A stretch of 64,000 nt of DNA from Octopus vulgaris (Eukaryota), in NCBI GenBank assembly GCA_951406725.2, contig OX597840.1:28644001-28708000 (forward strand), given 5' to 3'. The notes under the pieces are model-generated. The model worked only from the letters and a program-made list of their open reading frames with translations. It was not told where the DNA came from and did no database searches. Shown piece after piece: positions 1-33,689 of the stretch. Numbering within the stretch: the first letter of the stretch is position 1; each line of letters opens with the position of its first letter. A program made the position numbers and the translations under genes.

Positions 1-299
1 CATATTTATTCATTCTTAATACATTCTGGCATATTCGAACGTGAACAGGTGAATCGATGTTTATTTCGTCTGTGGAAAAACATCACCTTCCTTTCAACGA
101 TGCGTCTTCATAAAATTCCATACGTTGGCGTAAGGGCACTTTCAGATACTGCGGTGCTTCGACCTCGCTTTGTAAGTTTTCAGTGAAAACTATCCCCCGG
201 ATCAAAGAACTAAAGGAAAAAATCAGAGACATCTTCTCTCATTAGGCGATAAATATTCCTAATATTTTTGTTCTCTTTTGCTGTTCTAAAACCTTTCAG

Positions 300-445
300 G
301 TGATGTCATTAGATGGGAGCAACAGGTACGGTTACGGCACATGACCACACGTAAATATTTGTGCATCGACGCTGCCAGAGAAATATCATTAACAGACGAC
401 AACGAAGATCCAAGAACAGTTTTTCGTTTGCATTCAGTCCTCAGT
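300..445 (+). CDS. ITPR: IP3R-like exon 1 in window (MIR domain): xDVIRWEQQVRLRHMTTRKYLCIDAAREISLTDDNEDPRTVFRLHSVLS
   Basis: ctttcag acceptor, gtaagt donor at 446; 2+144 nt; MIR W..R.RH..T..YL pattern. Confidence 0.9.
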
Positions 446-650
446 GTAAGTAGTTCCACCGTCATTCTTTCATGTCGTCTGCTCCTAATTTAAGTACTTC
501 CACCATTATTCTTTCATGTCGTCTGCTCCTGACTTTCGTAAAATCAGGATGTCATCTGCTTTAATCATTTCACGCCAAATATTCTTCTTTCTTTCTCCAC
601 ATTCTCTCCTTCTCTTACACCATCTCACCCTCTCTCTTTCCCTTTCTCTC

Positions 651-701
<51 letters not shown>

Positions 702-706
702 ACTTT

Positions 707-740
<34 letters not shown>

Positions 741-850
741 CTTTCTATTTATCTAGTTATCCCCTTTCTGGCTCATCTCTCTCTCCCTCACACACACACT
801 ATAGATATATATATATATGTGCGTATATATACATATGCACATATATATAC

Positions 851-912
<62 letters not shown>

Positions 913-933
913 GTATACATGCATACATATATG

Positions 934-980
<47 letters not shown>

Positions 981-1035
981 ATACCTATATATATACATAA
1001 ATATATATATATATATATATATGATAGCATTTTTC

Positions 1036-1115
1036 CGATGGCCGGATAACTGAAGAGATGGCGGCGTGGATTTCCACCTCGGCATCCGAAACTCGGAGTT
1101 TTACCATGGCTACCG
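1036..1115 (+). ncRNA. Type I hammerhead ribozyme candidate (intron 1)
   Basis: CTGAAGA 1050-1056; stem II GATG..GTGGA/TCCAC..CATC; GAAA 1088-1091; palindromic stem III ACTC-G-GAGT; GTT triplet 1098-1100; bulged stem I GCCGGATAA/TTACC..GGC. Confidence 0.6.
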
Positions 1116-1134
1116 AATAATTGTCACATATTAC

Positions 1135-1174
<40 letters not shown>

Positions 1175-1208
1175 ACACGCACACACATACATACATACAT
1201 ATATATAT

Positions 1209-1256
<48 letters not shown>

Positions 1257-2001
1257 GCATATATGGGTATAGGATGTCACCAATGGTGCAAATAACATTA
1301 AATGTGTAAACAAACGTGTGTTAGATACGTAAACAACGAGGAAAAATGGAAAACAGGACAAGTAAACATAGAGAACGGACCCTTCATCAGTTGTCGGATG
1401 TCTGTCTACTCCTCATTTCGAGCATTCAACGATAATATGAGTCTTCAAAGACAGTTGCTCCCGTAAATACTAAAATAAAATTTAGGATTTATGAAGGGTC
1501 AAATTTGGGAACAAAATGACAGTGGAGACATACAAGTAAACCGAAGGAAAACAAACATGGGGGGTCGTTAAACTAGAACGAGAGGAAAATAGTGAATAGA
1601 TTTTTTAATTTTTTTAAAGGATAAAAGGGAGATGTGAGAGAGAAAAAATCACGTCTGTTCTTTTGAATGTCCGTGCAGGAAAAGGAAGATGGTCACATGA
1701 GGAAAAGAATGATGGACGATGGTCACGTATGAGCAACGTGAGAGATAGACAAAAGGAGAAAGCGGGGAGAGAGAGAGAGAGAGAAATTGTTTTAGAGGAT
1801 ATGTTGACCTCATAAAGGGATGGTTACACTCAAGAAAATACTGGTCCTATATCAAGCATTTTGGAGAAATGAAATTTCCTTAAATAAATGGGTATATATT
1901 AAGCATATAATTAAATTCACTGAACATAAATTATGTGTGTTTGTTTGTGTTTGTGTGAGTGTGCGCATAACCCTTCTCCCTCTCTCTCTCTCTCTCTTTC
2001 T

Positions 2002-2109
<108 letters not shown>

Positions 2110-2144
2110 TCTCTCTCTTCTCTCTCTCTCTCTCTCTTCTCTCT

Positions 2145-2238
<94 letters not shown>

Positions 2239-2662
2239 TACGCGCACTCTATCTCCCTTTCTATATGCCTAAGATGCTGTTGTTGCTACTGTCGCTGTGT
2301 AACATCATCAGCTCAATTCCTGATGAAGCAGAGGAATTAAATTAAAGACATTCCATCCGTAACCATCCAGTATGTTTGTAAACCAGAAAAGCAGGCAATA
2401 CACTATCCAATGCTTCCTTCATGTTTTCAACCTTATGTTGTAAAAAGAGGGAAACAGGGCTGCTATTTCTAGCACTCGCCAGCTGGCTCCTACCTGTCTG
2501 CCTATTTACATTACACTGCTTTTCTTCTTTTTTTTCTTTCTTCTACGTCACACACCTTTATATATACATACAGGGGTTTCTGTACGTGCGCGTGTGTGAT
2601 ATATATATATATATATATATATGTGTGTATGTGTGTGTGTGTGTATGTATGTATGTAGCTAG

Positions 2663-2697
<35 letters not shown>

Positions 2698-2746
2698 TAT
2701 ATATATATATATACACATAGACATATATACAAACACACACATACAC

Positions 2747-2781
<35 letters not shown>

Positions 2782-3081
2782 AATATATACACACACATGT
2801 ATATAAATACATACGCATATATCTATATATACATTAAATGTAAGTACATATATACATGCTTATAGATATATATATATTAATGCATTCACCCGTATAATGT
2901 ACTTTTTTGTGAATGTATATACATATATATATATACATACAAATATATATATATATATATATAAATGCATATATATAGATATTTATATAAATATAAAATA
3001 TATATACATGTGCGTGAAAGCCCATATGTGCATGCATTCACATACACATAATATACACATAGATACACACATATTCTCACT

Positions 3082-3164
<83 letters not shown>

Positions 3165-3366
3165 CCTGCGGCCCCACATCCATACATATATGAACATTGC
3201 TGTCATCTGTGAGCGAGAAAAAGTCACTTAGTGTAAAGCCTACTTTGGTTACAACTATTTCAGGAACGAAATTACGAATTGCACCCACTGCCCTGTCCCT
3301 TGCCTCACCCCTTTCCCACTCCCTCATTCTACATGCCGTCTGTCTAATTTATCACCTACACACACG

Positions 3367-3402
<36 letters not shown>

Positions 3403-3523
3403 CACATGTATTTATACACATATACTCAAGCACAAACACGAAGGGAGCTGCTCAAAAATTCAGCCTTACGCACCTAAATGTGAAGCTGAGTCTTGCATGC
3501 CTCTCCCAATAACTAAATGACGG

Positions 3524-4110
3524 TAAGGCGGCGAGCTGGCAGAAACGTTAGCACGCTGGACGAAATGCTTACCGGCATTTCGTATGTCTTTACGTTCTGA
3601 GTTCAAATTCCGTCGAGGTCGACTTTATCTTTCATCCTTTCGGGGTCGATTAGATTAAGTACCAGTTACGCACTGAGGTCGATGTTATCGACTTAATCCG
3701 TTTGTCTGTCTTTGTTTGTCCCCTCTGTGTTTAGCCCCTTGTGGGTAGTAAAGAAATAGGTATTTCGTCTACCGCTACGTTCTGAGTTCAAATTCCGCCA
3801 AGGTCGACTTTGCCTTTCATCCTTTCGGGGTCAATAAATTAAGTACCAATTACACACTGGTGTCGATGTAATCGACTTAAACCCTTGTCTGTCCTTGTTT
3901 GTCCCCGCTATGTTTAGCCCCTTGTGAGCAATAAAGAAATAAGAAACGTTAGCACGCCGGGCGAAATGCGTAGCCGTATTTCGTCTGCCGTTACGTTCTG
4001 AGTTCAAATTCCGCCGAGGTCGACTTTGTCTTTCATCCTTTCGGGGTCGATAAATTAAATACCAGTTGTATACTGGAGTCGATCTAATCGACTGGCAGCC
4101 TCCCCCAAAA
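3524..4110 (+). mobile_element. SINE family B (Nin/Deu-like core GCCTTTCATCCTTTCGGGGTCGATAAA) with internal triplication
   Basis: Head AAGGCGGCGAGCTGGCAGAAACGTTAG; core repeated three times. Other copies at 16500-16715, 17094-17285, 25580-25792(-), 26150-26327(-), 35265-35690. Confidence 0.8.
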
Positions 4111-4117
4111 TTTCGGT

Positions 4118-5460
<1,343 letters not shown>

Positions 5461-5590
5461 TCTGGAGGAGGAGGCTTCCTCCTAGGGTTAAAAACGAGAG
5501 TAACGTTGGTTCCTACAGAACAGCCATATTAGATATGGCGATAATCAAAATTGATTAAATGATAATTTAACTTTTCTATTTCTTTTACAG

Positions 5591-5669
5591 GAGAGGGATG
5601 AAATCCGTTTCGAGAGCTATGCCCGTATCGAACACGTATTGACGGGGTTTTGGCTACACGCACTTAAAG
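5591..5669 (+). CDS. ITPR: IP3R-like exon 2: ERDEIRFESYARIEHVLTGFWLHALK
   Basis: ttttacag acceptor, gttaga donor; phase 0 to 1; MIR motif SY.R.EH..TG.WLH. Confidence 0.9.
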
Positions 5670-5756
5670 GTTAGATACGCTTTTATTCTGGAAGGGGCTT
5701 TTCGGTGTGTGTGGGGCGGTGTAATTTATTTCAAATTATTGGATATTGTTGTTATT

Positions 5757-7023
5757 CTTCTTTTTTCTTTTTCTTCCTCTTCTTCTTTTCATACTTTTCC
5801 TTCATCTTTTTCACTTTCTTATCATTTTCTTCTTTTCTTCTTTTTCATTCTTCTTTTTCTTCATTTTCTTATTTCCCTTATTTTCTTCTTCTTCTTTCTC
5901 TTCTTTTCTTTCTTCTTTTCTTCTTTTTCTTCGTCACCTTTGTCCTCTTCATCTTTTTCATTTTCTTGTTATCATTTTTTTCTCCTTCTTTTTCTTCTTC
6001 TTCAGTCTTCTTTTTCTTCATTTTCTTCTTATTTCCCTTATTTTCTTCTTCTTCTTTCTCTTCATCTTCTTTTCTTTCTTCTTTTCTTCTTTTTCTTCAT
6101 CACCTTTGTCCTCTTCATCTTTTTCATTTTCTTTTTATCATTTTTTCTTCTTCTTCATCATCCTCCGCCTCTTTTTTCTCCTTCTTCCTCTTCTTCTTTT
6201 CGTTATTTTTTCTTCCTTTTTTTTTCCTTCTGTTTTATTTCATCATTCTCTTATTTTCTTATTTTTCTTCATCTTCTTCTTCCCCTTCTTCTTTTCCTTC
6301 TTCTTTTCTTTCTTCTTTTTCTTCTTCACCTTTTCCTTGTTTTTCTTCATTTTCTTCTTTTCCTATTTCCTTTTTTTTCTTCTTTTTTTCCATAATGTAA
6401 TGATTGTTGTAATTGTTGTTGTAATTGTTGTTGTTGTTGTTGTTGTTATTAACGTTTCGGGGTTTACTGTTGTCATCATTCTTCGTGTTCCTGTTTTTGT
6501 TATTTGTTTTTATATTTGTTGTAGTCTTTGTAGTGATTTCTCGTATTTTTGTTGCTCTTATTAATGATGATGACGATGATGATGGTGATGATGGTGGTGA
6601 CGACGACAATGATGATGGTGGTAATGTTAATGGTGACGGCGATGGTGAAGATGGTAGTGATGGAAACGACCATAGTGATGATGGTAACTATGATGATGAT
6701 GATGATGGGATGAAGAGGAAGAGGACAATGATGTAGATGACGATGGTGATGGTGATATTTGTGATGATGATAATGATGAGGATGATGATGAAGATGATGA
6801 TGTTGATGATGACGACGATGACGATGATGATGACGATGACGATGATGACGACGATGATAATGATAATAATGTTGATGATGACGACGATGACGATGATGAT
6901 GACGATGACGATGATGACGACGATGATAATGATAATAATGTTGATGATGACGATGATGATGATGATGATGACGACGACGACGACGACGACGACGATGATG
7001 ATGATGATGATGATGATGACGAC

Positions 7024-7058
<35 letters not shown>

Positions 7059-7138
7059 CGACGACGATGATGATGATGATGATGATGATGACGACGACGA
7101 CGATGATGATGATGATGATGATGATGATGACGATGATA

Positions 7139-7187
<49 letters not shown>

Positions 7188-7194
7188 CGACGAC

Positions 7195-7232
<38 letters not shown>

Positions 7233-7282
7233 CGACGACGACGACGTTGATGATGATGATGATGATGATGATGACGATGATA

Positions 7283-7332
<50 letters not shown>

Positions 7333-7386
7333 GATGATGAGGATGATGATGATTATGATGATGACTAGATTGTGATGATGATGATG
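5757..7386. repeat. Compound (TTC)n / (GTT)n / (GAT,GAC)n low-complexity tract
   Basis: Directly visible; about 159-bp internal duplication in the TTC part. Confidence 0.95.
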
Positions 7387-8216
7387 CTTTGCACAATGTC
7401 AGCTCTGATCCAGCACACATACATATGACTGAGGACATTTCAACCATGACCACTCCATCTCTTTTAACCCCCCAGATCAACTTTGACCTAGTAAACTTAT
7501 AATCAAAGGTGTTTCTTCGTTATATAATTTGTCCTTCGGGAAGGTACGAATTCGCTTAGATTTGGCTGTTATTTCTCGACTATAGAACTTTACTTTCTGA
7601 AAAGCTCTTTAAGCGGGAGTTTCCAAGTTTCTTAGGTTAATTCCACCAGTAAAAAGAAAAACCCAAAAAAAACAGAGAAACCCCCTAAACGTTACTGTTT
7701 CGTGTCCTGGGGCTCATCGGGGCAGACACCTGGTTTCTATGGCGTATAAGTGACCGAGATCGCAACAACACTCCTGAACGGGAGACTCGTTTACAGCTAA
7801 GGAGACTGGAACAACATAAAGTGAAGCGTTTTTGTTTTTTTTTTGTTTTTTATTTTGTTTTTTTTGTTTTTTTTTGCTTAAGAACACAATGTTCGGTTCG
7901 TCGGGAATTGAAACCACAATCTTGCGATCATAAGTGCGTAGGACCCTAAACACTAAATTCTCAATAATTTCATCTGAGAATCGTTAAAAGAAATATTTCT
8001 CAAAACTAAAACAAACAAAAAATTGAAGGAAAAATTTCAATTTTTTTTTTGTTTTTTAAAAAAATTGAAGGAAAAATTTGAATTTTTTCTTGTTTTTTTT
8101 TTTTTAAATTGAAGGAAAAATTTGAATTTTTCTTTTGTTTTTTTTTTTTAAATTGAAGGAAAAATTTGAATTTTTTTTTTTTTGGTTTTTTTTAATTTTT
8201 CAATTTTTATTTTCAG

Positions 8217-8305
8217 ATGAAGATTATATCAGGAAACAGTTTCGATGTGCAGACAGTGAACAAGGGATGCGAGGTGTGCGTTGGGACGGTGCTCAAGTCC
8301 GACAG
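8217..8305 (+). CDS. ITPR: IP3R-like exon 3: DEDYIRKQFRCADSEQGMRGVRWDGAQVRQ
   Basis: ttttcag acceptor, gtact donor; phase 1 to 0 bridges exons 2 and 4 exactly. Confidence 0.85.
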
Positions 8306-8306
8306 G

Positions 8307-8531
8307 TACTCTTACTCTCTCTCTTTTACTCTTTTACTTGTTTCAGTCATTTGACTGCGGCCATGCTGGAGCACCGCCTTTAGTCGAGCAAATCGACCCC
8401 GGGACTTATTCTTTTTCTAAGCCCAGTACTTATTCTATCGGTCTCTTTTGCCGAACCGCTAAGTGACGGGGACGTAAACACACCAGCATCGGTTGTCAAG
8501 CAATGGTAGGGGGACAAACACAGACACACAA

Positions 8532-8562
<31 letters not shown>

Positions 8563-8732
8563 CATATATACGACGGGCTTCTTTCAGTTTCTGTCTACCA
8601 AATCCACTCACAAGGCTTTGGTCGGCCCGGGGCTATAGTAGAAGACACTTGCCCAAGATGCCACGCAGTGGGACTGAACCCGGAACCATGTAGTTGGTTA
8701 GCAAGCTACTTACCACACAGCCACTCCTGCGC
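8307..8732 (-). mobile_element. Full SINE family A abutting the exon 3 donor
   Basis: Tail begins within a few nt of GT 8306; an inverted 3' half follows at 8745-9000. Confidence 0.85.
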
Positions 8733-8743
8733 ATTTTTTTCTT

Positions 8744-8783
<40 letters not shown>

Positions 8784-9367
8784 TTGTGTGTCTGTGTTTT
8801 TCCCCCTACCATCACTTCACAACTGATGCTGGCGTGTTTACGTCCCCGTAACTTAACGGTTCGGCAAAAAAAGTGACCGATAGAATAAGTACTAGGCTTA
8901 CAAGGAATAAGTCCCTGAGGCCGATTTGTTTGACTAAAGAGACGCTGCTCCAGCATGGCCGCAGTCAAATGACTGAAACAAGTAAAAGAATTAAAGAATT
9001 ATGATTCGATCGACTTTACCTCGAATGTCCTTCTGCTAGGAATCACTCTTCCGCATTGGAAATATTGTACCGTCAATGGCTGGCCAGCATTTTGAACAAT
9101 GTGAACTGTCATTTCCAGTACGAACTACAAGTCTAGCTCTCTGTCGAGACATTATTTAGGCAACCAGCTATGACATTCAACCAACTCGAACAGTATGTTC
9201 TCTAAAATATGTTCCGCTTGGTTCCAGATCGAAAAATATGTTTGTATGAAGATCAAACAATTGGTAATAATTGTCTCGAGAGGAATAGATTTTTATTTTT
9301 TATTTTTTGATATTTATGGTGAAACGAGAAAATCTTGAACTTTTTTGATTAACCCAAATTTGGTTTC

Positions 9368-9438
9368 TATTTGGTTGTCCGGAAAGTTCGTGCCAATTTA
9401 TAGTAGCTTATATTTCGACTTATTTTAGAACGAGGCTG
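9368..9438 (+). mobile_element. Solo left-end fragment of the same mariner
   Basis: About 70-bp near match to 9739-9809. Confidence 0.8.
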
Positions 9439-9740
9439 CCATACATACGCATGCCATACATAAGCGTAGAAACGTATACACACGTTAACACTCGGATGAC
9501 TCATAGATTCATCCCTATGTTTACACTCAGTTATCAGTTCACCAATCCTAAGCCAGCAATCTACCAACAATCAAGCAGTAATCTATCAATTTTCATACAA
9601 TCTACAGTCGTGGTCAAAAGTTTGGAATACAGGTCTAAAGAATTTTTATATTAAATACCCAAAATTATATTTAATTTGCAATATATTATTTCTTGGCCAA
9701 ATGTTTGGAACATACCAATTGGCCGGGTATTAGGTAAGTA

Positions 9741-10305
9741 TTGGGTTGCTCGGAAAGTTCGTGCCGATTTATAGCAGCTTATATTTCGACTTATTTTAGA
9801 ACGTGGCTGAGTCCATAAAATAGGATTTGACTACACCTCCATTTAGAGCACTGTTTAAGCTAACTTTTCGTGGAAGAAGGTTTATGTTCCTATAACCTGT
9901 GCTAATTCTGTAACCCTTTAAAATGGAAGATAAGAAAGTTCATTTTCGGCACTTGATGCTTTGGGAACCAGACAAAAATTGCTGCAGCTCGGCTGGGATG
10001 TGTTATCCGCCCTCCATATTCACCAGATATTGCTCCTTCGGATTTCCACTTATTCAAGTCTCTGCAGAATAGTCTTAATGGTAAAAATTTCAATTCCTTG
10101 GATGACGTAAAAAGATACCTTGATGAATTGTTTGCCATGAAACCACCTCAATTCTGGGAAGAGGGTATTTTCAAGTTAAATGAAAGATGGAGACGCATTG
10201 TGCAACAAAATGGTTCATATTTGGTTGATTAAAAATGTAATGGCAAGTATTTATTGACCTTTTTCTTTCCTTTAAAAATCGGCACGAACTTTCCGGACAA
10301 CCCAA
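9741..10305 (+). mobile_element. Internally deleted mariner DNA transposon (mellifera-like)
   Basis: 30-bp TIRs 9741-9770 and 10276-10305 flanked by TA. N-terminus MEDKKVHFRHLMLWE (ATG 9923) is joined to TRQKLLQLGWDVL..PYSPDIAPSDFHLFKSLQNSL...WRRIVQQNGSYLVD* (stop 10230-10232). Confidence 0.93.
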
Positions 10306-10316
10306 TAATTTCGAAA

Positions 10317-10626
10317 TCTTTATATATAAAACTGAAGTTGTGTGTGTGAGAGTCTGTCTCCTCCGATTTAGATTCCTAACTACTCCCACATTTTGCGGTG
10401 CAGTTTAACCAAAAGCGGGCATCTTATAGTCGTGATTCATATCGAGCCCTCCTGGGTATCAGTGCGCGTCTACGATGAGTCTACGATTCAAAAAAAAAAT
10501 TTACCATCATTTTTTCGTTTTTTTAATGCATTTTTTGCTCGGTTTATATAAGGGAAGTAACTCTCTAAAAGTCCTTATATAGTTATTTCTCTTACAAACC
10601 CGAGCAACGCCGGGCAATACTGCTAG
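10317..10626 (+). mobile_element. Non-autonomous Helitron
   Basis: A|TC 5' end; subterminal hairpin CCCGAGCAACGCCGGG (10599-10614); CTAG|T 3' end; no TSD. Confidence 0.85.
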
Positions 10627-10670
10627 TTTTAAATAAACGCTTGTTAATTTTATTTTGTTGTGTGTTGCAG

Positions 10671-25847: not shown

Positions 25848-26621
25848 TATGTGTGTGTATATGTTTGTGTGTCTGTGTTTGTCCCCCCAACATCGCTTGA
25901 CAACCGATGCTGGTGTGTTTACGTCCCCGTAACTTAGCGGTTCGGCAAAAGAGACCGATAGCATAAGTACTAGGCTTACAAAGAATAAGTCCCGGGGTCG
26001 ATTTGCTCGACTACGGCGGTGCTCCAGCATGGCCACAGTCAAATGACTGAAACAAGTAAAAGAGAGTAAAAGAGAAAATAATAATAACAATAATAATAAT
26101 GATGATGATGATGATGATGATAATGATGATGATGATAATAATTTCTACTTGTAGCACAAAGCGTCAAATTGGGGGAAAAGGGATTAAGTCGATTACATCG
26201 ACCCCAGTGCGTAACTGGTACTTATTTAATCGACCTCGAAAGAATGAAAGGCAAAGTCGACCTCGACGGAATTTGAACTCAGAACGTAGCGACAGATGAA
26301 ATGCCGTTAAGCATTTCGCCCGGCGTGATAAATTGTCCCCCAACATCGCTTGACAACCGATGCTGGTGTGTTTGCGTCCCCGTAACTTAGCGATTCGGCA
26401 AAAGTGACCGATAGAATACGTACTAGGCTTACAAAGAATAAGTCCTGGGGTAGATTTCTTCGATAAAAGGCGGTGCTCCAGCATGGCCGCGGTCAAATGA
26501 CTGAAACTAGTAAAAGAGATTGAAGAGGATTTTGCGTTGTCAATTTTGGAAAGTCACTGAGGATGTCTGCGGAAGAAAACCCTGGGAATTGGTTAAAAAG
26601 AGGGCAACTGCGAAAAGAGAG

Positions 26622-27038
26622 GGATCTTTTCGGTTTGAACGGCAGTTTTTAACATAATTTCTAGGTAATTAAAAAATGTTTAAACTTCGAATGCTGGTAG
26701 AATGTGTTTATAAAACATCTTTTTCTCTTGGCTTTATTGAGAAAATTCTATAGTTTGTAAGATATTTGTTATTTTTTTCTTCAATTTCTGCAGTTTCAAC
26801 CAATCACTGACGTCCATTGAGGTAAAAAGCATTCTGTGCCGTATGAATATGTCCCTCGTTTAAGAAACAGATTGGGTTTATTTACATTTGTGAAGAAAAA
26901 AAAGATACCCTTCCCCCACCCCTAACCCTAACCCTAAAACAGATTGAAATGCAATAGATCGATACTAGGGTCATAATTATGGGTGACAATTTCATATGAC
27001 ACCGCTAGAAAAAACTGCCTTTCAAACCGAAAAGATCC
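26622..27038. mobile_element. Non-autonomous TIR element with 8-bp TSD (Merlin-like)
   Basis: TIR GGATCTTTTCGGTTTGAACGGCAGTTTTT. TSD AAAGAGAG at 26614-26621 and 27039-27046. The paralogous repeat near 27280 shows the empty site. Internal (CCCTAA)n. Confidence 0.88.
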
Positions 27039-27372
27039 AAAGAGAGCCTTATTATAAAAAAACAGTAGCTCGAAATCATGCGATAGAATAAGTACTAGAC
27101 TTACAAAGAATAAGTCCTAGGGTAGATTTCTTCGACTAAAGGCTGTGCTCCAGCATGGCCGGAGTCAAATGACTGAAACAAGTAAAGGAGTTTGAAGAGG
27201 AAATTTTTGCGTTGTCAATTTTGGAAAGCCACTGAGGAAGAAAACCCTGGGAATTGGTTGAAAAGAGGGCAACTGCGAAAAGAGAGCCTTATTATAAAAA
27301 TAAAAGTATCTCGAAACCTTGCACTGCGAGCAAGTTACAAAAATATGTATACGGGGAAGAAAAGATTGAAAC

Positions 27373-27422
27373 GCCACCTGATGAGACGTCAACACCTGCA
27401 TTCGAAACCAGGGTACGGTAGC
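27373..27422 (+). ncRNA. Degenerate hammerhead-like motif (copy 1 of duplicated pair)
   Basis: CTGATGA 27378-27384 ... GAAAC-CAGG-GTA; stems I and II imperfect. Confidence 0.4.
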
Positions 27423-28242
27423 ACCCTGAACACACGAGGACTTAACCTAAAAACGTTGGCTTGTAATTGTTTTGTTATTGTAGTTGTTGTTGCTGTTGTT
27501 TTATAGTTCGGCTCAGTCCCACTGCGTGGCACCTCGGGAGAGTGTCTTCTGCTGGCGTGTTTGCGTCCCCGTAACTTAGCAGTTCGGCAAAAGAGACCGG
27601 TAGAATAAGTACTAGGCTTACAACGAATAAGTCCTGGGGGTAGATTTCTTCTACTAAAGGCTGTGCTCCAGCATGGCCGCAGTCAAATGACTGAAACAAG
27701 TAAAGGAGATTGAAGAGGAAATTTTTGCGTGGTCCGTTTTGGAAAGTCACTGAGGATGTCTGCGGAAGAAAACCCTGGGAATTGGTTGAAAAGGGGCAAC
27801 TGCGAAAAGAGACCCTAATAATAGTAGCTCGAAAATTTTTGCGTTGTCAATTTTAGAAAGTCACTGAGGATATCTACGGAAGAAAACCCTGGGAATTGGT
27901 TGAAAAGGGGGCAACTGCGAAAAGAGACCCTTATAATAGTAGCTCGAAAATTTTTGCGTTGTCAATTTTAGAAAGTCACTGAGGATGTCTACGGAAGAAA
28001 ACCCTGGGAATTGGTTGAAAAGGGGGCAACTGCGAAAAGAGACCCTTATAATAGTAGCTCGAAAATTTTTGCGTTGTCAATTTTAGAAAGTCACTGGGGA
28101 TGTCTACGGAAGAAAACCCTGGGAATTGGTTGAAAAGAGGGCAACTACGAAAAGCGGGCAACTGCGAAACGAGACCCTTATTATAATAATAGCTCGAAAA
28201 TATGTTAAGAAAATATGTATACGGGGAAGAAAAGATCGAAAC

Positions 28243-28292
28243 GCCACCTGATGAGACATCAACACCTGCATTCGAAACCAGGGTACGGTAGC
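28243..28292 (+). ncRNA. Degenerate hammerhead-like motif (copy 2)
   Basis: Near-identical to 27373-27422; CTGATGA at 28248-28254. Confidence 0.4.
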
Positions 28293-33110: not shown

Positions 33111-33157
33111 ATTGCCACTGACGATGCTCAAGGAAGCAGAAATACGTACTTAGCAAT
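33111..33157 (+). ncRNA. Minimal type I hammerhead-like motif with mutated cleavage triplet
   Basis: ATTGCCA-CTGACGA-TGCT-caagga-AGCA-GAAAT-ACGT-ACT-TAGCAAT; perfect stem II, 6/7 stem I, palindromic loop. Confidence 0.55.
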
Positions 33158-33689
33158 TCCACCACCGTTACTGGACCATTTTCATTTGTTGCTGATGTAT
33201 TTCTGTGTTTTTTAACAATATACGTCTATTTAATATGCTTTCTCGAGACGAGTAATGCAGTTTCTAGACTTTCAACAGTATATCTGCGTTGAGTATGATA
33301 TACAGAATGCTATTTTGAAATTTTGAACGAATACTGCTTCCCTCACTAATAACAAACACAGACACACATATATATATATACATATGTAGAAAGAGAGAGG
33401 GAGGGAGCGAGAGACGGAGAGAGATGTGTATGCCTGTGTGTGTCTGTGTGTGTGTGAGTCTGTGTGTGTGTGTGTGTGTGTGAGTGTGTGTGTGTGTATG
33501 TGCGTGTGTGTGCATGCACTTATAGCAACAGGCCTAACTGATGCTCTGCCGAGTCCTCAGTTGGACCACAGTTTTTATAGACCTAGACAAGCAATGATCA
33601 TATTACATACACATACAAACGCGGGTGCTCCTATTCGCTGATATATATATCATATATGCGTGTGTGCGTATACATATATATATATATAT

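What the first reader, a model, noticed from the sequence alone, without database searches (positions are those of the whole stretch)
1036..1115. Nearly intact stand-alone hammerhead between microsatellites in intron 1
A unique island of about 120 bp between (TA)n and (CA)n consists almost entirely of a type I hammerhead. The core is complete, stem II is about 14 bp (two mismatches, one bulge), stem III is the palindrome ACTC-G-GAGT, the site is GUU, and stem I is extended and bulged (CGATGGCCGGATAA / TTACCATGGCTACCG). It is the best candidate for activity and is on the sense strand of the host gene.
Basis: partly seen in the sequence, partly recalled or inferred. Interest (0 to 1): 0.72.

Follow-up and report, generated by a model that had tools for sequence, protein, structure and literature searches.

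The report
Truncated Hydra-clade Penelope end with hammerhead
The hammerhead-ribozyme motif is real, but it is one of hundreds of near-identical copies of the cut-short end of a known kind of jumping gene (a Hydra-clade Penelope-like element), likely dropped into a TA/CA repeat in an internal intron, and this copy is predicted to cut RNA poorly on its own, so it is ordinary.

Summary
The type I hammerhead anatomy is there (core 1050-1056, GAAA 1088-1091, palindromic stem III, GUU at 1098-1100) and is not chance (0 hits in 100 shuffles). It is not unique or stand-alone. The 118-bp island (1024-1141) has 451 exact genomic copies of its 31-nt core. Relatives run on into the 3' UTR and ORF of a Penelope-like retrotransposon whose protein shows the Hydra-clade motifs and a predicted telomerase-like RT fold. 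A Hydra family with this kind of hammerhead and (TA)n targeting is already published for octopus. The host is an IP3/ryanodine-receptor-type gene on the same strand, but this is an internal intron, not intron 1. The copy is a poor candidate for activity: stem III needs a second copy, none lies in the 104 kb searched, and a rare substitution (16 vs 1,310 copies) breaks proximal stem I. Minor novelty: all subfamilies keep an extra pyrimidine before G12, and the youngest (about 3,000 copies) adds U4C. The scan has reported the same kind of element several times before, on other DNA of this and other genomes.

The parts
1024..1141 (+). 5'-truncated 3' end (pLTR fragment, short-end type) of a Hydra-clade Penelope-like element
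   Evidence: Matches the majority letter of 30 subfamily copies at 117 of 118 positions; 97% identical to L029 and 83% to the pLTRs of the intact element L049
1036..1049 (+). Stem I, 5' strand
   Evidence: Pairs 1036-37/1114-15, 1039-43/1108-12, 1044-45/1104-05, 1047-49/1101-03
1050..1056 (+). Catalytic core C3-A9 (CUGAAGA)
   Evidence: Sequence; in the 30-row alignment only N7 (A/C/U) and U4 (C in subfamily B) vary
1057..1086 (+). Stem II: 11 pairs, 2 mismatches, 4-nt loop
   Evidence: Pair probabilities 0.80-1.00; 92% of cells paired across 30 copies
1087..1087 (+). Extra pyrimidine between stem II and G12 (or G10.1 pairs with 1087 and 1086 is bulged)
   Evidence: C or U in all 30 aligned rows, which were pre-selected for this spacing; C 24, T 3, G 2, A 1 in 30 copies found by the upstream 31-mer alone
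1088..1091 (+). Core G12 A13 A14 A15.1
   Evidence: Sequence
1091..1099 (+). Palindromic stem III (4 bp around one base): dimerisation helix
   Evidence: 3-bp hairpin costs +2.1 kcal/mol; two-copy duplex -9.7 kcal/mol
1100..1100 (+). N17 = U; predicted cleavage 3' of this base
   Evidence: Position by hammerhead numbering (established knowledge); C in most subfamily C copies shown
1101..1115 (+). Stem I, 3' strand, with a rare C at 1104 that loses the A1046 pair
   Evidence: Exact 28-mer counts: 16 with C, 1,310 with T
1116..1141 (+). Element sequence to the short 3' end (+41 from the cut site), merging into (CA)n
   Evidence: 3' ends cluster at +41..48 or +112..115
800..1022 (.). (TA)n-rich microsatellite, likely insertion target
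   Evidence: TRF; (TA)n is the published Hydra preference
1139..1199 (.). (CA)n microsatellite on the 3' side
   Evidence: TRF
300..445 (+). Internal host exon (MIR domain) of an IP3R/RyR-type gene; donor at 446
   Evidence: PF02815 E 7.5e-6; splice sites read
446..10670 (+). Host intron holding the element (about 10.2 kb; end inferred from the next in-phase exon found)
   Evidence: a small exon in between is not excluded

Best explanation
This 118-bp island is one of hundreds of near-identical copies of the hammerhead-bearing 3' end of a Hydra-clade Penelope-like retrotransposon, likely left by a 5'-truncated insertion into a TA/CA repeat, and its ribozyme is predicted to cut weakly and only when paired with a second copy. 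SHOWN: copy number; continuity of the repeat with a 3' UTR and an ORF; a pLTR-ORF-pLTR layout (about 2.59-kb unit) in the sister subfamily; two fixed 3' ends; (TA)n flanks; conservation of core and stems between subfamilies. INFERRED: the element's endonuclease nicks (TA)n; its reverse transcriptase primes at one of two TA-like sites 3' of the ribozyme, copies through the uncut (or re-joined) ribozyme and stops or switches template just 5' of it, which is why the island is almost all hammerhead. In full tandem elements two hammerheads would swap their palindromic stem III strands and cut out a unit-length RNA. The lone intronic copy is transcribed only as part of the host pre-mRNA and is most likely a silent passenger.
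For: 451 exact copies of the core 31-mer, control 0. L011 (98% identical repeat) continues into a broken ORF that is 84.5% identical over 194 aa to the intact 708-aa ORF of L049. L131 shows ORF end, then a 3' UTR 70% like the sequence upstream of subfamily A copies, then the hammerhead. The L049 protein has RWK, DKT, YKDD, CxCX5C, IIY..YVG, CxxC and CxH, the motifs listed for Hydra in PMC8557442 section 11. Its model (pLDDT 93.8) matches reverse transcriptases, with telomerase in 5 of the top 6 hits. The published Hydra table lists Hydra-1_Obim (octopus, 2,507 bp, (TA)n); ACTC-N-GAGT is stem III in 5 of 26 Hydra rows and U is the cut site in 10 of 26. 19 of 19 head-to-head pairs have one long and one short 3' end, matching the published one-sided tail. 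27 of 31 subfamily A copies stop within 42 nt 5' of position 1048. No second copy lies from -40 kb to +64 kb. PLE hammerheads tested as single motifs showed no cleavage and dimers low cleavage (PMC4209133).
Against: No intact ORF was seen attached to the window's own subfamily A repeat; all ORF-linked A copies fetched were broken, and intact ORFs came from subfamily B (83% identical repeat). Covariation is modest: 4 pairs with a double change, reached by 377 of 500 shuffles, although pairing is 89% against 33-50% for slid controls. Pfam and PDB sequence searches did not recognise the protein; the endonuclease call rests on motifs and predicted secondary structure, not on a fold match. Folding energies ignore Mg2+ and tertiary contacts, so monomer activity is not excluded. 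The host gene beyond the 104 kb searched was not checked for a partner.
Confidence: 0.88

Rival explanations
1. A domesticated intronic ribozyme that cuts the host pre-mRNA and tunes splicing or expression, like the RECK/C10orf118 hammerheads or the CPEB3 ribozyme.
For: Sense strand, about 580 nt after a donor in a 10-kb intron; intact core; long stems I and II.
Against: Differs from the family majority at 1 of 118 positions, so it is a young insertion. That one change weakens stem I. Stem III cannot close as a 1-nt loop and there is no partner in 104 kb.
Confidence: 0.04
2. A non-autonomous mini-element (retrozyme- or SINE-like unit of about 120-190 nt) copied as its own RNA by the Hydra enzyme.
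For: 27 of 31 subfamily A copies begin within a 36-nt zone just 5' of the ribozyme; no intact A ORF was seen.
Against: 5' ends are ragged (6-42 nt) and often inversion junctions; some copies extend into a long 3' UTR or into the ORF. Ends do not map to the cut site. The only tandem seen (L016-L018) is a 1.4-kb duplication that includes flanks. Subfamily B, which is autonomous, has the same short class (11 of 30 within 38 nt) plus a long tail.
Confidence: 0.06
3. The motif is a dead relic in the whole lineage: the extra pyrimidine before G12 abolished catalysis, and the fold persists only as a signal for the element's protein.
For: The youngest and largest subfamily (3,044 exact copies; 19 of 30 identical over 37 nt) also carries U4C; every copy examined spans the cut site intact.
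Against: Within the core, change falls mainly at the tolerated positions N7 and N17 and the central base of stem III. In subfamily A, essential positions changed in 2 of 135 cells against 55 of 864 elsewhere (3 of 30 copies dropped for indels; confounded by shared sub-lineage variants). U4C keeps enough activity for viroid infectivity (PMC3088659). This rival is compatible with the element's identity and concerns only catalysis.
Confidence: 0.2

Closest known systems
Hydra clade of C-terminal-endonuclease Penelope-like elements, incl. Hydra-1_Obim of Octopus bimaculoides (Craig et al. 2021, PMC8557442; passages, sections 6 and 11, supplement part 2 and search hits seen)
   Same: Under 3 kb, single ORF of about 708 aa, RWK, DKT, CxCX5C, CxxC/CxH; (TA)n target; 5' truncation, inverted partner, one-sided tail; type I hammerhead near the 3' end with a palindromic stem III around one base. 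The Obim hammerhead also starts CUGAAGAGAUG and cuts after U.
   Different: A different family: stem II, stem III and stem I sequences differ from Hydra-1_Obim (compared by eye). Stem II is longer (13 positions vs 3-7 bp in the table). A one-sided extra pyrimidine before G12 is in none of the 26 Hydra rows as parsed there. The tail is about 47-67 nt rather than 30-40.
Minimal/palindromic PLE hammerheads (Cervera and de la Pena 2014, PMC4209133; parts 1-2 of 4 read)
   Same: Type I, long helix II, short palindromic helix III, mostly solitary copies from truncated PLEs, opposite-strand pairs 100-700 bp apart, predicted dimer action.
   Different: Their unpaired base lies between positions 9 and 10.1; here it lies on the 3' side, between 11.1 and G12. 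Stem I here is longer.
Metazoan non-LTR retrozymes (PMC7229834, passages; bioRxiv 10.64898/2026.07.22.740005, part 1 of 5)
   Same: Type I hammerhead in an animal repeat; dimer-dependent forms known; linked to PLEs.
   Different: No 170-400-nt tandem monomers here; the repeat is the end of a coding element.
Conserved intronic hammerheads of RECK and C10orf118 (PMC3088659, passages)
   Same: Hammerhead on the sense strand of an intron.
   Different: Those are conserved across mammals, with tertiary contacts, and cleave as monomers; this is a young multi-copy insertion with a dimer-type stem III.

Membership tests
Type I hammerhead ribozyme | Core C3 U4 G5 A6 N7 G8 A9 and G12 A13 A14, with A15.1-U16.1 and H17 | tested here: met
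   1050-1056, 1088-1091, 1099, 1100
Type I hammerhead ribozyme | Three helices, with stem I holding the 5' and 3' ends | tested here: met
   stem III forms as 3 bp or between two copies
Type I hammerhead ribozyme | 11.1 stacked directly on G12, no insertion | tested here: not met
   Extra C at 1086/1087; can be read as a bulge beside a lone G10.1-C11.1 pair, at similar predicted cost. It lowers 'canonical', not 'hammerhead'.
Type I hammerhead ribozyme | Stem I/II tertiary contact | not testable with these tools
   No 3D RNA tool
Type I hammerhead ribozyme | Mg2+-dependent self-cleavage after H17 | not testable with these tools
   Bench assay needed
Penelope-like element | Telomerase-related reverse transcriptase in a single ORF | tested here: met
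   Intact 708-aa ORF of sister subfamily L049; model matches RTs, with telomerase in 5 of the top 6 hits
Penelope-like element | C-terminal GIY-YIG endonuclease | tested here: inconclusive
   IIY..YVG motif at 576 and a matching strand/helix order; no separate fold search of the domain; Pfam blank
Penelope-like element | pLTRs with a hammerhead, partial tandems, inverted 5'-truncated partner, one-sided tail | tested here: met
Hydra clade | RWK present; DKG changed to DKT; CxCX5C linker; CxxC and CxH near the end | tested here: met
   Positions 37, 114, 557, 660, 691 against the definition
Hydra clade | Under 3 kb and inserts in (TA)n | tested here: met
   About 2.59-kb spacing of tandem ORF hits; (TA)n or other microsatellite at most 3' flanks
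Hydra clade | Groups with Hydra RTs in a tree | not tested
   Published sequences were seen only as cut text in the supplement and compared by eye
Non-LTR retrozyme | Non-coding tandem monomers of 170-400 nt with one hammerhead each | tested here: not met
Non-LTR retrozyme | Abundant circular/linear monomer RNA | not testable with these tools
   Only contigs of runs guessed to be RNA were available
Domesticated intronic ribozyme (RECK/C10orf118 type) | Single-copy, locus conserved across species | tested here: not met
   Multi-copy and young; orthology across species itself not testable here

The most novel reading that the evidence does not exclude
This Hydra lineage carries a natural hammerhead variant with a fixed extra pyrimidine between stem II and G12, and its most successful current subfamily (about 3,000 copies, many intact ORFs) has added U4C. 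The lineage would be evolving deliberately slow ribozymes, so that enough RNA stays uncut to be copied, while the fold also makes the reverse transcriptase stop or switch template at its 5' foot. Subfamilies A, B and C would then be a ready-made series for testing whether Penelope-like elements need their ribozyme to cut.
Probability: 0.25. Interest if true: 0.5.

Novelty: new member of a known kind. Interest (0 to 1): 0.17.

Why it matters
As a locus it matters little: it is one more truncated Penelope-like end in an intron. The family has modest value. The role of hammerheads in these elements is stated to be unclear (PMC8557442), and here closely related subfamilies differ at U4, N7, N17 and stem I while all keep an unusual junction base. 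That gives natural variants for a cleavage-versus-mobility test.

Tried and rejected
Rfam found no match at gathering scores in the window and no hammerhead family at E up to 10 around the site, only microsatellite-driven miRNA hits; the blank is not taken as evidence against the motif. Unconstrained folding gives misfolds and z near -1, so stability is no support. Naiad was considered and dropped: Naiads have an N-terminal endonuclease and lack canonical hammerheads. Pfam and PDB sequence searches on the element protein and homologues were uninformative. The 992 homologues carried no names in the 120 rows listed. The Atlas look-up gave no result. Sequencing runs: no RNA holder on record; contigs of three runs guessed to be RNA and one other run cover the repeat family but cannot show this locus, strand, or ends. 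Holders bear four organism labels, which concerns the family, not this insertion. Orthology of the insertion could not be tested because both junctions lie in microsatellites, and no target-site duplication can be read. Lunse et al. 2017 (dimeric PLE hammerheads) was not held; I saw only its citation and the summary in PMC6765202. Thomson et al. 1996 (selected H-GAA junction variants, active but slower) is recalled only and was not held. Searches for the junction insertion and U4C in print and for octopus Penelope hammerheads returned nothing describing this family; supplements of PMC4209133 and PMC3088659 were not read and may list such variants.

Full report
Observation. The island 1024-1141 sits between a (TA)n-rich tract (800-1022) and (CA)n (1139-1199). 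It holds a type I hammerhead layout: stem I 5' strand 1036-1049, core CUGAAGA 1050-1056, stem II 1057-1086, one extra C, GAAA 1088-1091, a palindromic stem III 1091-1099, U17 at 1100, and stem I 3' strand 1101-1115. A descriptor needing the core, 4 bp of stem II (one extra base allowed), 3 bp of stem III and 3 bp of stem I found only this site in the window and none in 100 shuffles. Rfam found nothing and overall folding is no better than shuffles.

It is not unique. A DNA search of the own genome gave 1,423 candidates; 40 were scored and gave 46 matches, the full-length ones 96-100% identical. The 31-mer 1048-1078 occurs exactly 451 times, its reversed control 0 times. Across 1024-1141 the window copy differs at one position from the majority of 30 copies taken in order along one contig, so the insertion is young.

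It is the end of a retroelement. Copies end at two fixed places, about +41 to +48 or +112 to +115 from the cut site, mostly into (TA)n or another microsatellite. In L011 the repeat runs on past the long end into a broken ORF. Searching with that ORF gave 7,153 candidates, 150 scored, many with 717-codon open frames and some 2.59 kb apart. L049 is repeat, 708-aa ORF, repeat; its repeat is 83% identical to the window (subfamily B). L131 (subfamily C) shows ORF end, 3' UTR and hammerhead in order, and its UTR is 70% like the sequence upstream of long subfamily A copies. No intact ORF was seen on a subfamily A copy among those fetched.

Which element. The L049 protein has RWK (37), DKT (114), YKDD (346), CxCX5C (557), IIY..YVG (576), CxxC (660) and CxH (691). 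These are the motifs given for the Hydra clade in PMC8557442 section 11. A model built on 110 sequences (pLDDT 93.8) matches reverse transcriptases, with telomerase in 5 of the top 6 hits. Sequence searches of Pfam and PDB were blank. The paper's supplement lists Hydra-1_Obim from Octopus bimaculoides, 2,507 bp, (TA)n target, and 26 Hydra hammerhead rows; 5 have ACTC-N-GAGT as stem III and 10 cut after U. By eye the Obim protein shares long motifs with L049 but is a different family.

Insertion anatomy. Among loci L001-L030, L083-L112 and L138-L167, 19 head-to-head pairs were found, and all 19 have one long and one short 3' end. This is the published inverted partner with a one-sided tail; the lead to test it came from an earlier scan note. 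The window copy is a short-end arm with no partner hammerhead. 27 of 31 subfamily A copies (window included) lose similarity within 42 nt 5' of position 1048, against a 284-nt reference; in subfamily B 11 of 30 do so within 38 nt, with a long tail to full length. Copies were chosen by carrying the core pattern, so truncations inside the ribozyme are invisible. The pile-up explains why the island is nearly all hammerhead; that the enzyme stops or switches template there is inference.

Structure across subfamilies. In 30 natural copies from subfamilies A, B, C and intermediates, chosen by hand from 103 distinct gap-free motifs, 89% of pair cells are paired against 33-50% for slid controls. Only 4 pairs show double changes, a number 377 of 500 shuffles reach. 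Core changes fall at N7, N17 and the central base of stem III, plus U4C in B. Every row has an extra C or U before GAAA (rows were pre-selected for that spacing; in 30 unselected A copies it is C 24, T 3, G 2, A 1). None of the 26 published Hydra rows is parsed with such a one-sided extra base. From memory, and not retrievable here, an in vitro selection (Thomson et al. 1996) found H-GAA junctions active but slower. B is the youngest group (19 of 30 identical over 37 nt, against 3 of 27 in A) and the largest (3,044 exact copies). U4C is reported to cut activity strongly in vitro yet allow viroid infectivity (PMC3088659).

Likely activity of this copy. Stem III cannot close around one base. As a 3-bp hairpin it costs +2.1 kcal/mol, while two copies form a duplex of -9.7. 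PLE hammerheads of this kind gave no cleavage as single motifs and low cleavage as dimers (PMC4209133; summary in PMC6765202). No second copy lies from -40 kb to +64 kb. The copy's one difference, C1104, occurs in 16 exact 28-mers against 1,310 with T. It removes the A1046 pair, leaving three A-U pairs and a bulge next to the core, and lowers the predicted active-fold fraction from 6.5e-4 to 4.8e-5. These energies omit Mg2+ and tertiary contacts.

Host gene. Exon 300-445 matches MIR; exons further on match RIH (E 5.6e-7) and RIH-associated domains (weak), and an exon about 11 kb before the window matches the IP3R/RyR N-terminal domain weakly (4 of 10 fragments had no hit, and 1 only an unrelated weak one). 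The gene is on the + strand, so the motif is sense, but the intron (446 to about 10,670) is only the first in the window.

Verdict. A real hammerhead motif, an ordinary carrier: a new family member of the Hydra-clade Penelope-like elements, here a young, lone, slightly damaged short end. Earlier notes of this scan reached the same reading for other loci; my reading was stated before I saw them. The family-level junction insertion and the U4C expansion are the only points of mild interest.

Noticed in passing
L049:590-3420 (G000:C5:4983091-4986621) and about 3,000 copies: The youngest subfamily has intact 708-aa ORFs and a hammerhead with U4C plus an extra U before G12 and a more degenerate stem II; it outnumbers the U4 subfamily about 7 to 1 by exact core match.
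   Followed up: partly
Subfamily A copies L083-L112; window equivalent about 1006-1042: 5' truncation and inversion junctions pile up just 5' of stem I (27 of 31 copies).
   Followed up: partly
19 pairs in L002-L161: Every head-to-head pair has one long and one short 3' end; the short end is about +45 in A and mostly +63 in B.
   Followed up: yes
L049 and L113, about +50 to +75 past the cut site: A weak hairpin (CCUC/GAGG-type arms) is predicted in the tail near the short end; L013 carries a change that breaks it, and the window copy ends before it.
   Followed up: partly
window 1015-1026: The few letters at the 5' junction resemble the reverse complement of the long 3' end, so they may be a vestige of an inverted partner; too short to prove.
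   Followed up: no
window 27378-27420 and 28248-28290 (+): Two copies of an unrelated repeat with CUGAUGA and GAAA cores that fail the standard three-stem descriptor; possibly the rewired Naiad-type motif noted elsewhere in this scan.
   Followed up: no
window 33118-33160 (+) and 24241-24190 (-): Two further hammerhead-like cores of other families; 33118 has a 4-bp stem II and a palindromic segment after GAAA.
   Followed up: no
window 26530-28160 (+): An irregular array of about 115-nt units with CUGAGGA and GAAA words.
   Followed up: no
G000:C2:102041879-102046121 (L016-L018): Four copies of the element about 1.4 kb apart, duplicated together with their flanks.
   Followed up: partly
window 300-35200 and upstream to about -20 kb: Host gene of IP3R/RyR type (Ins145_P3_rec, MIR, RIH, RIH_assoc) with RIH-associated domain unusually soon after RIH; gene model not built.
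   Followed up: partly
window 9957-10229 (+): A mariner-like transposase fragment in the same intron (label recalled from its motifs).
   Followed up: no
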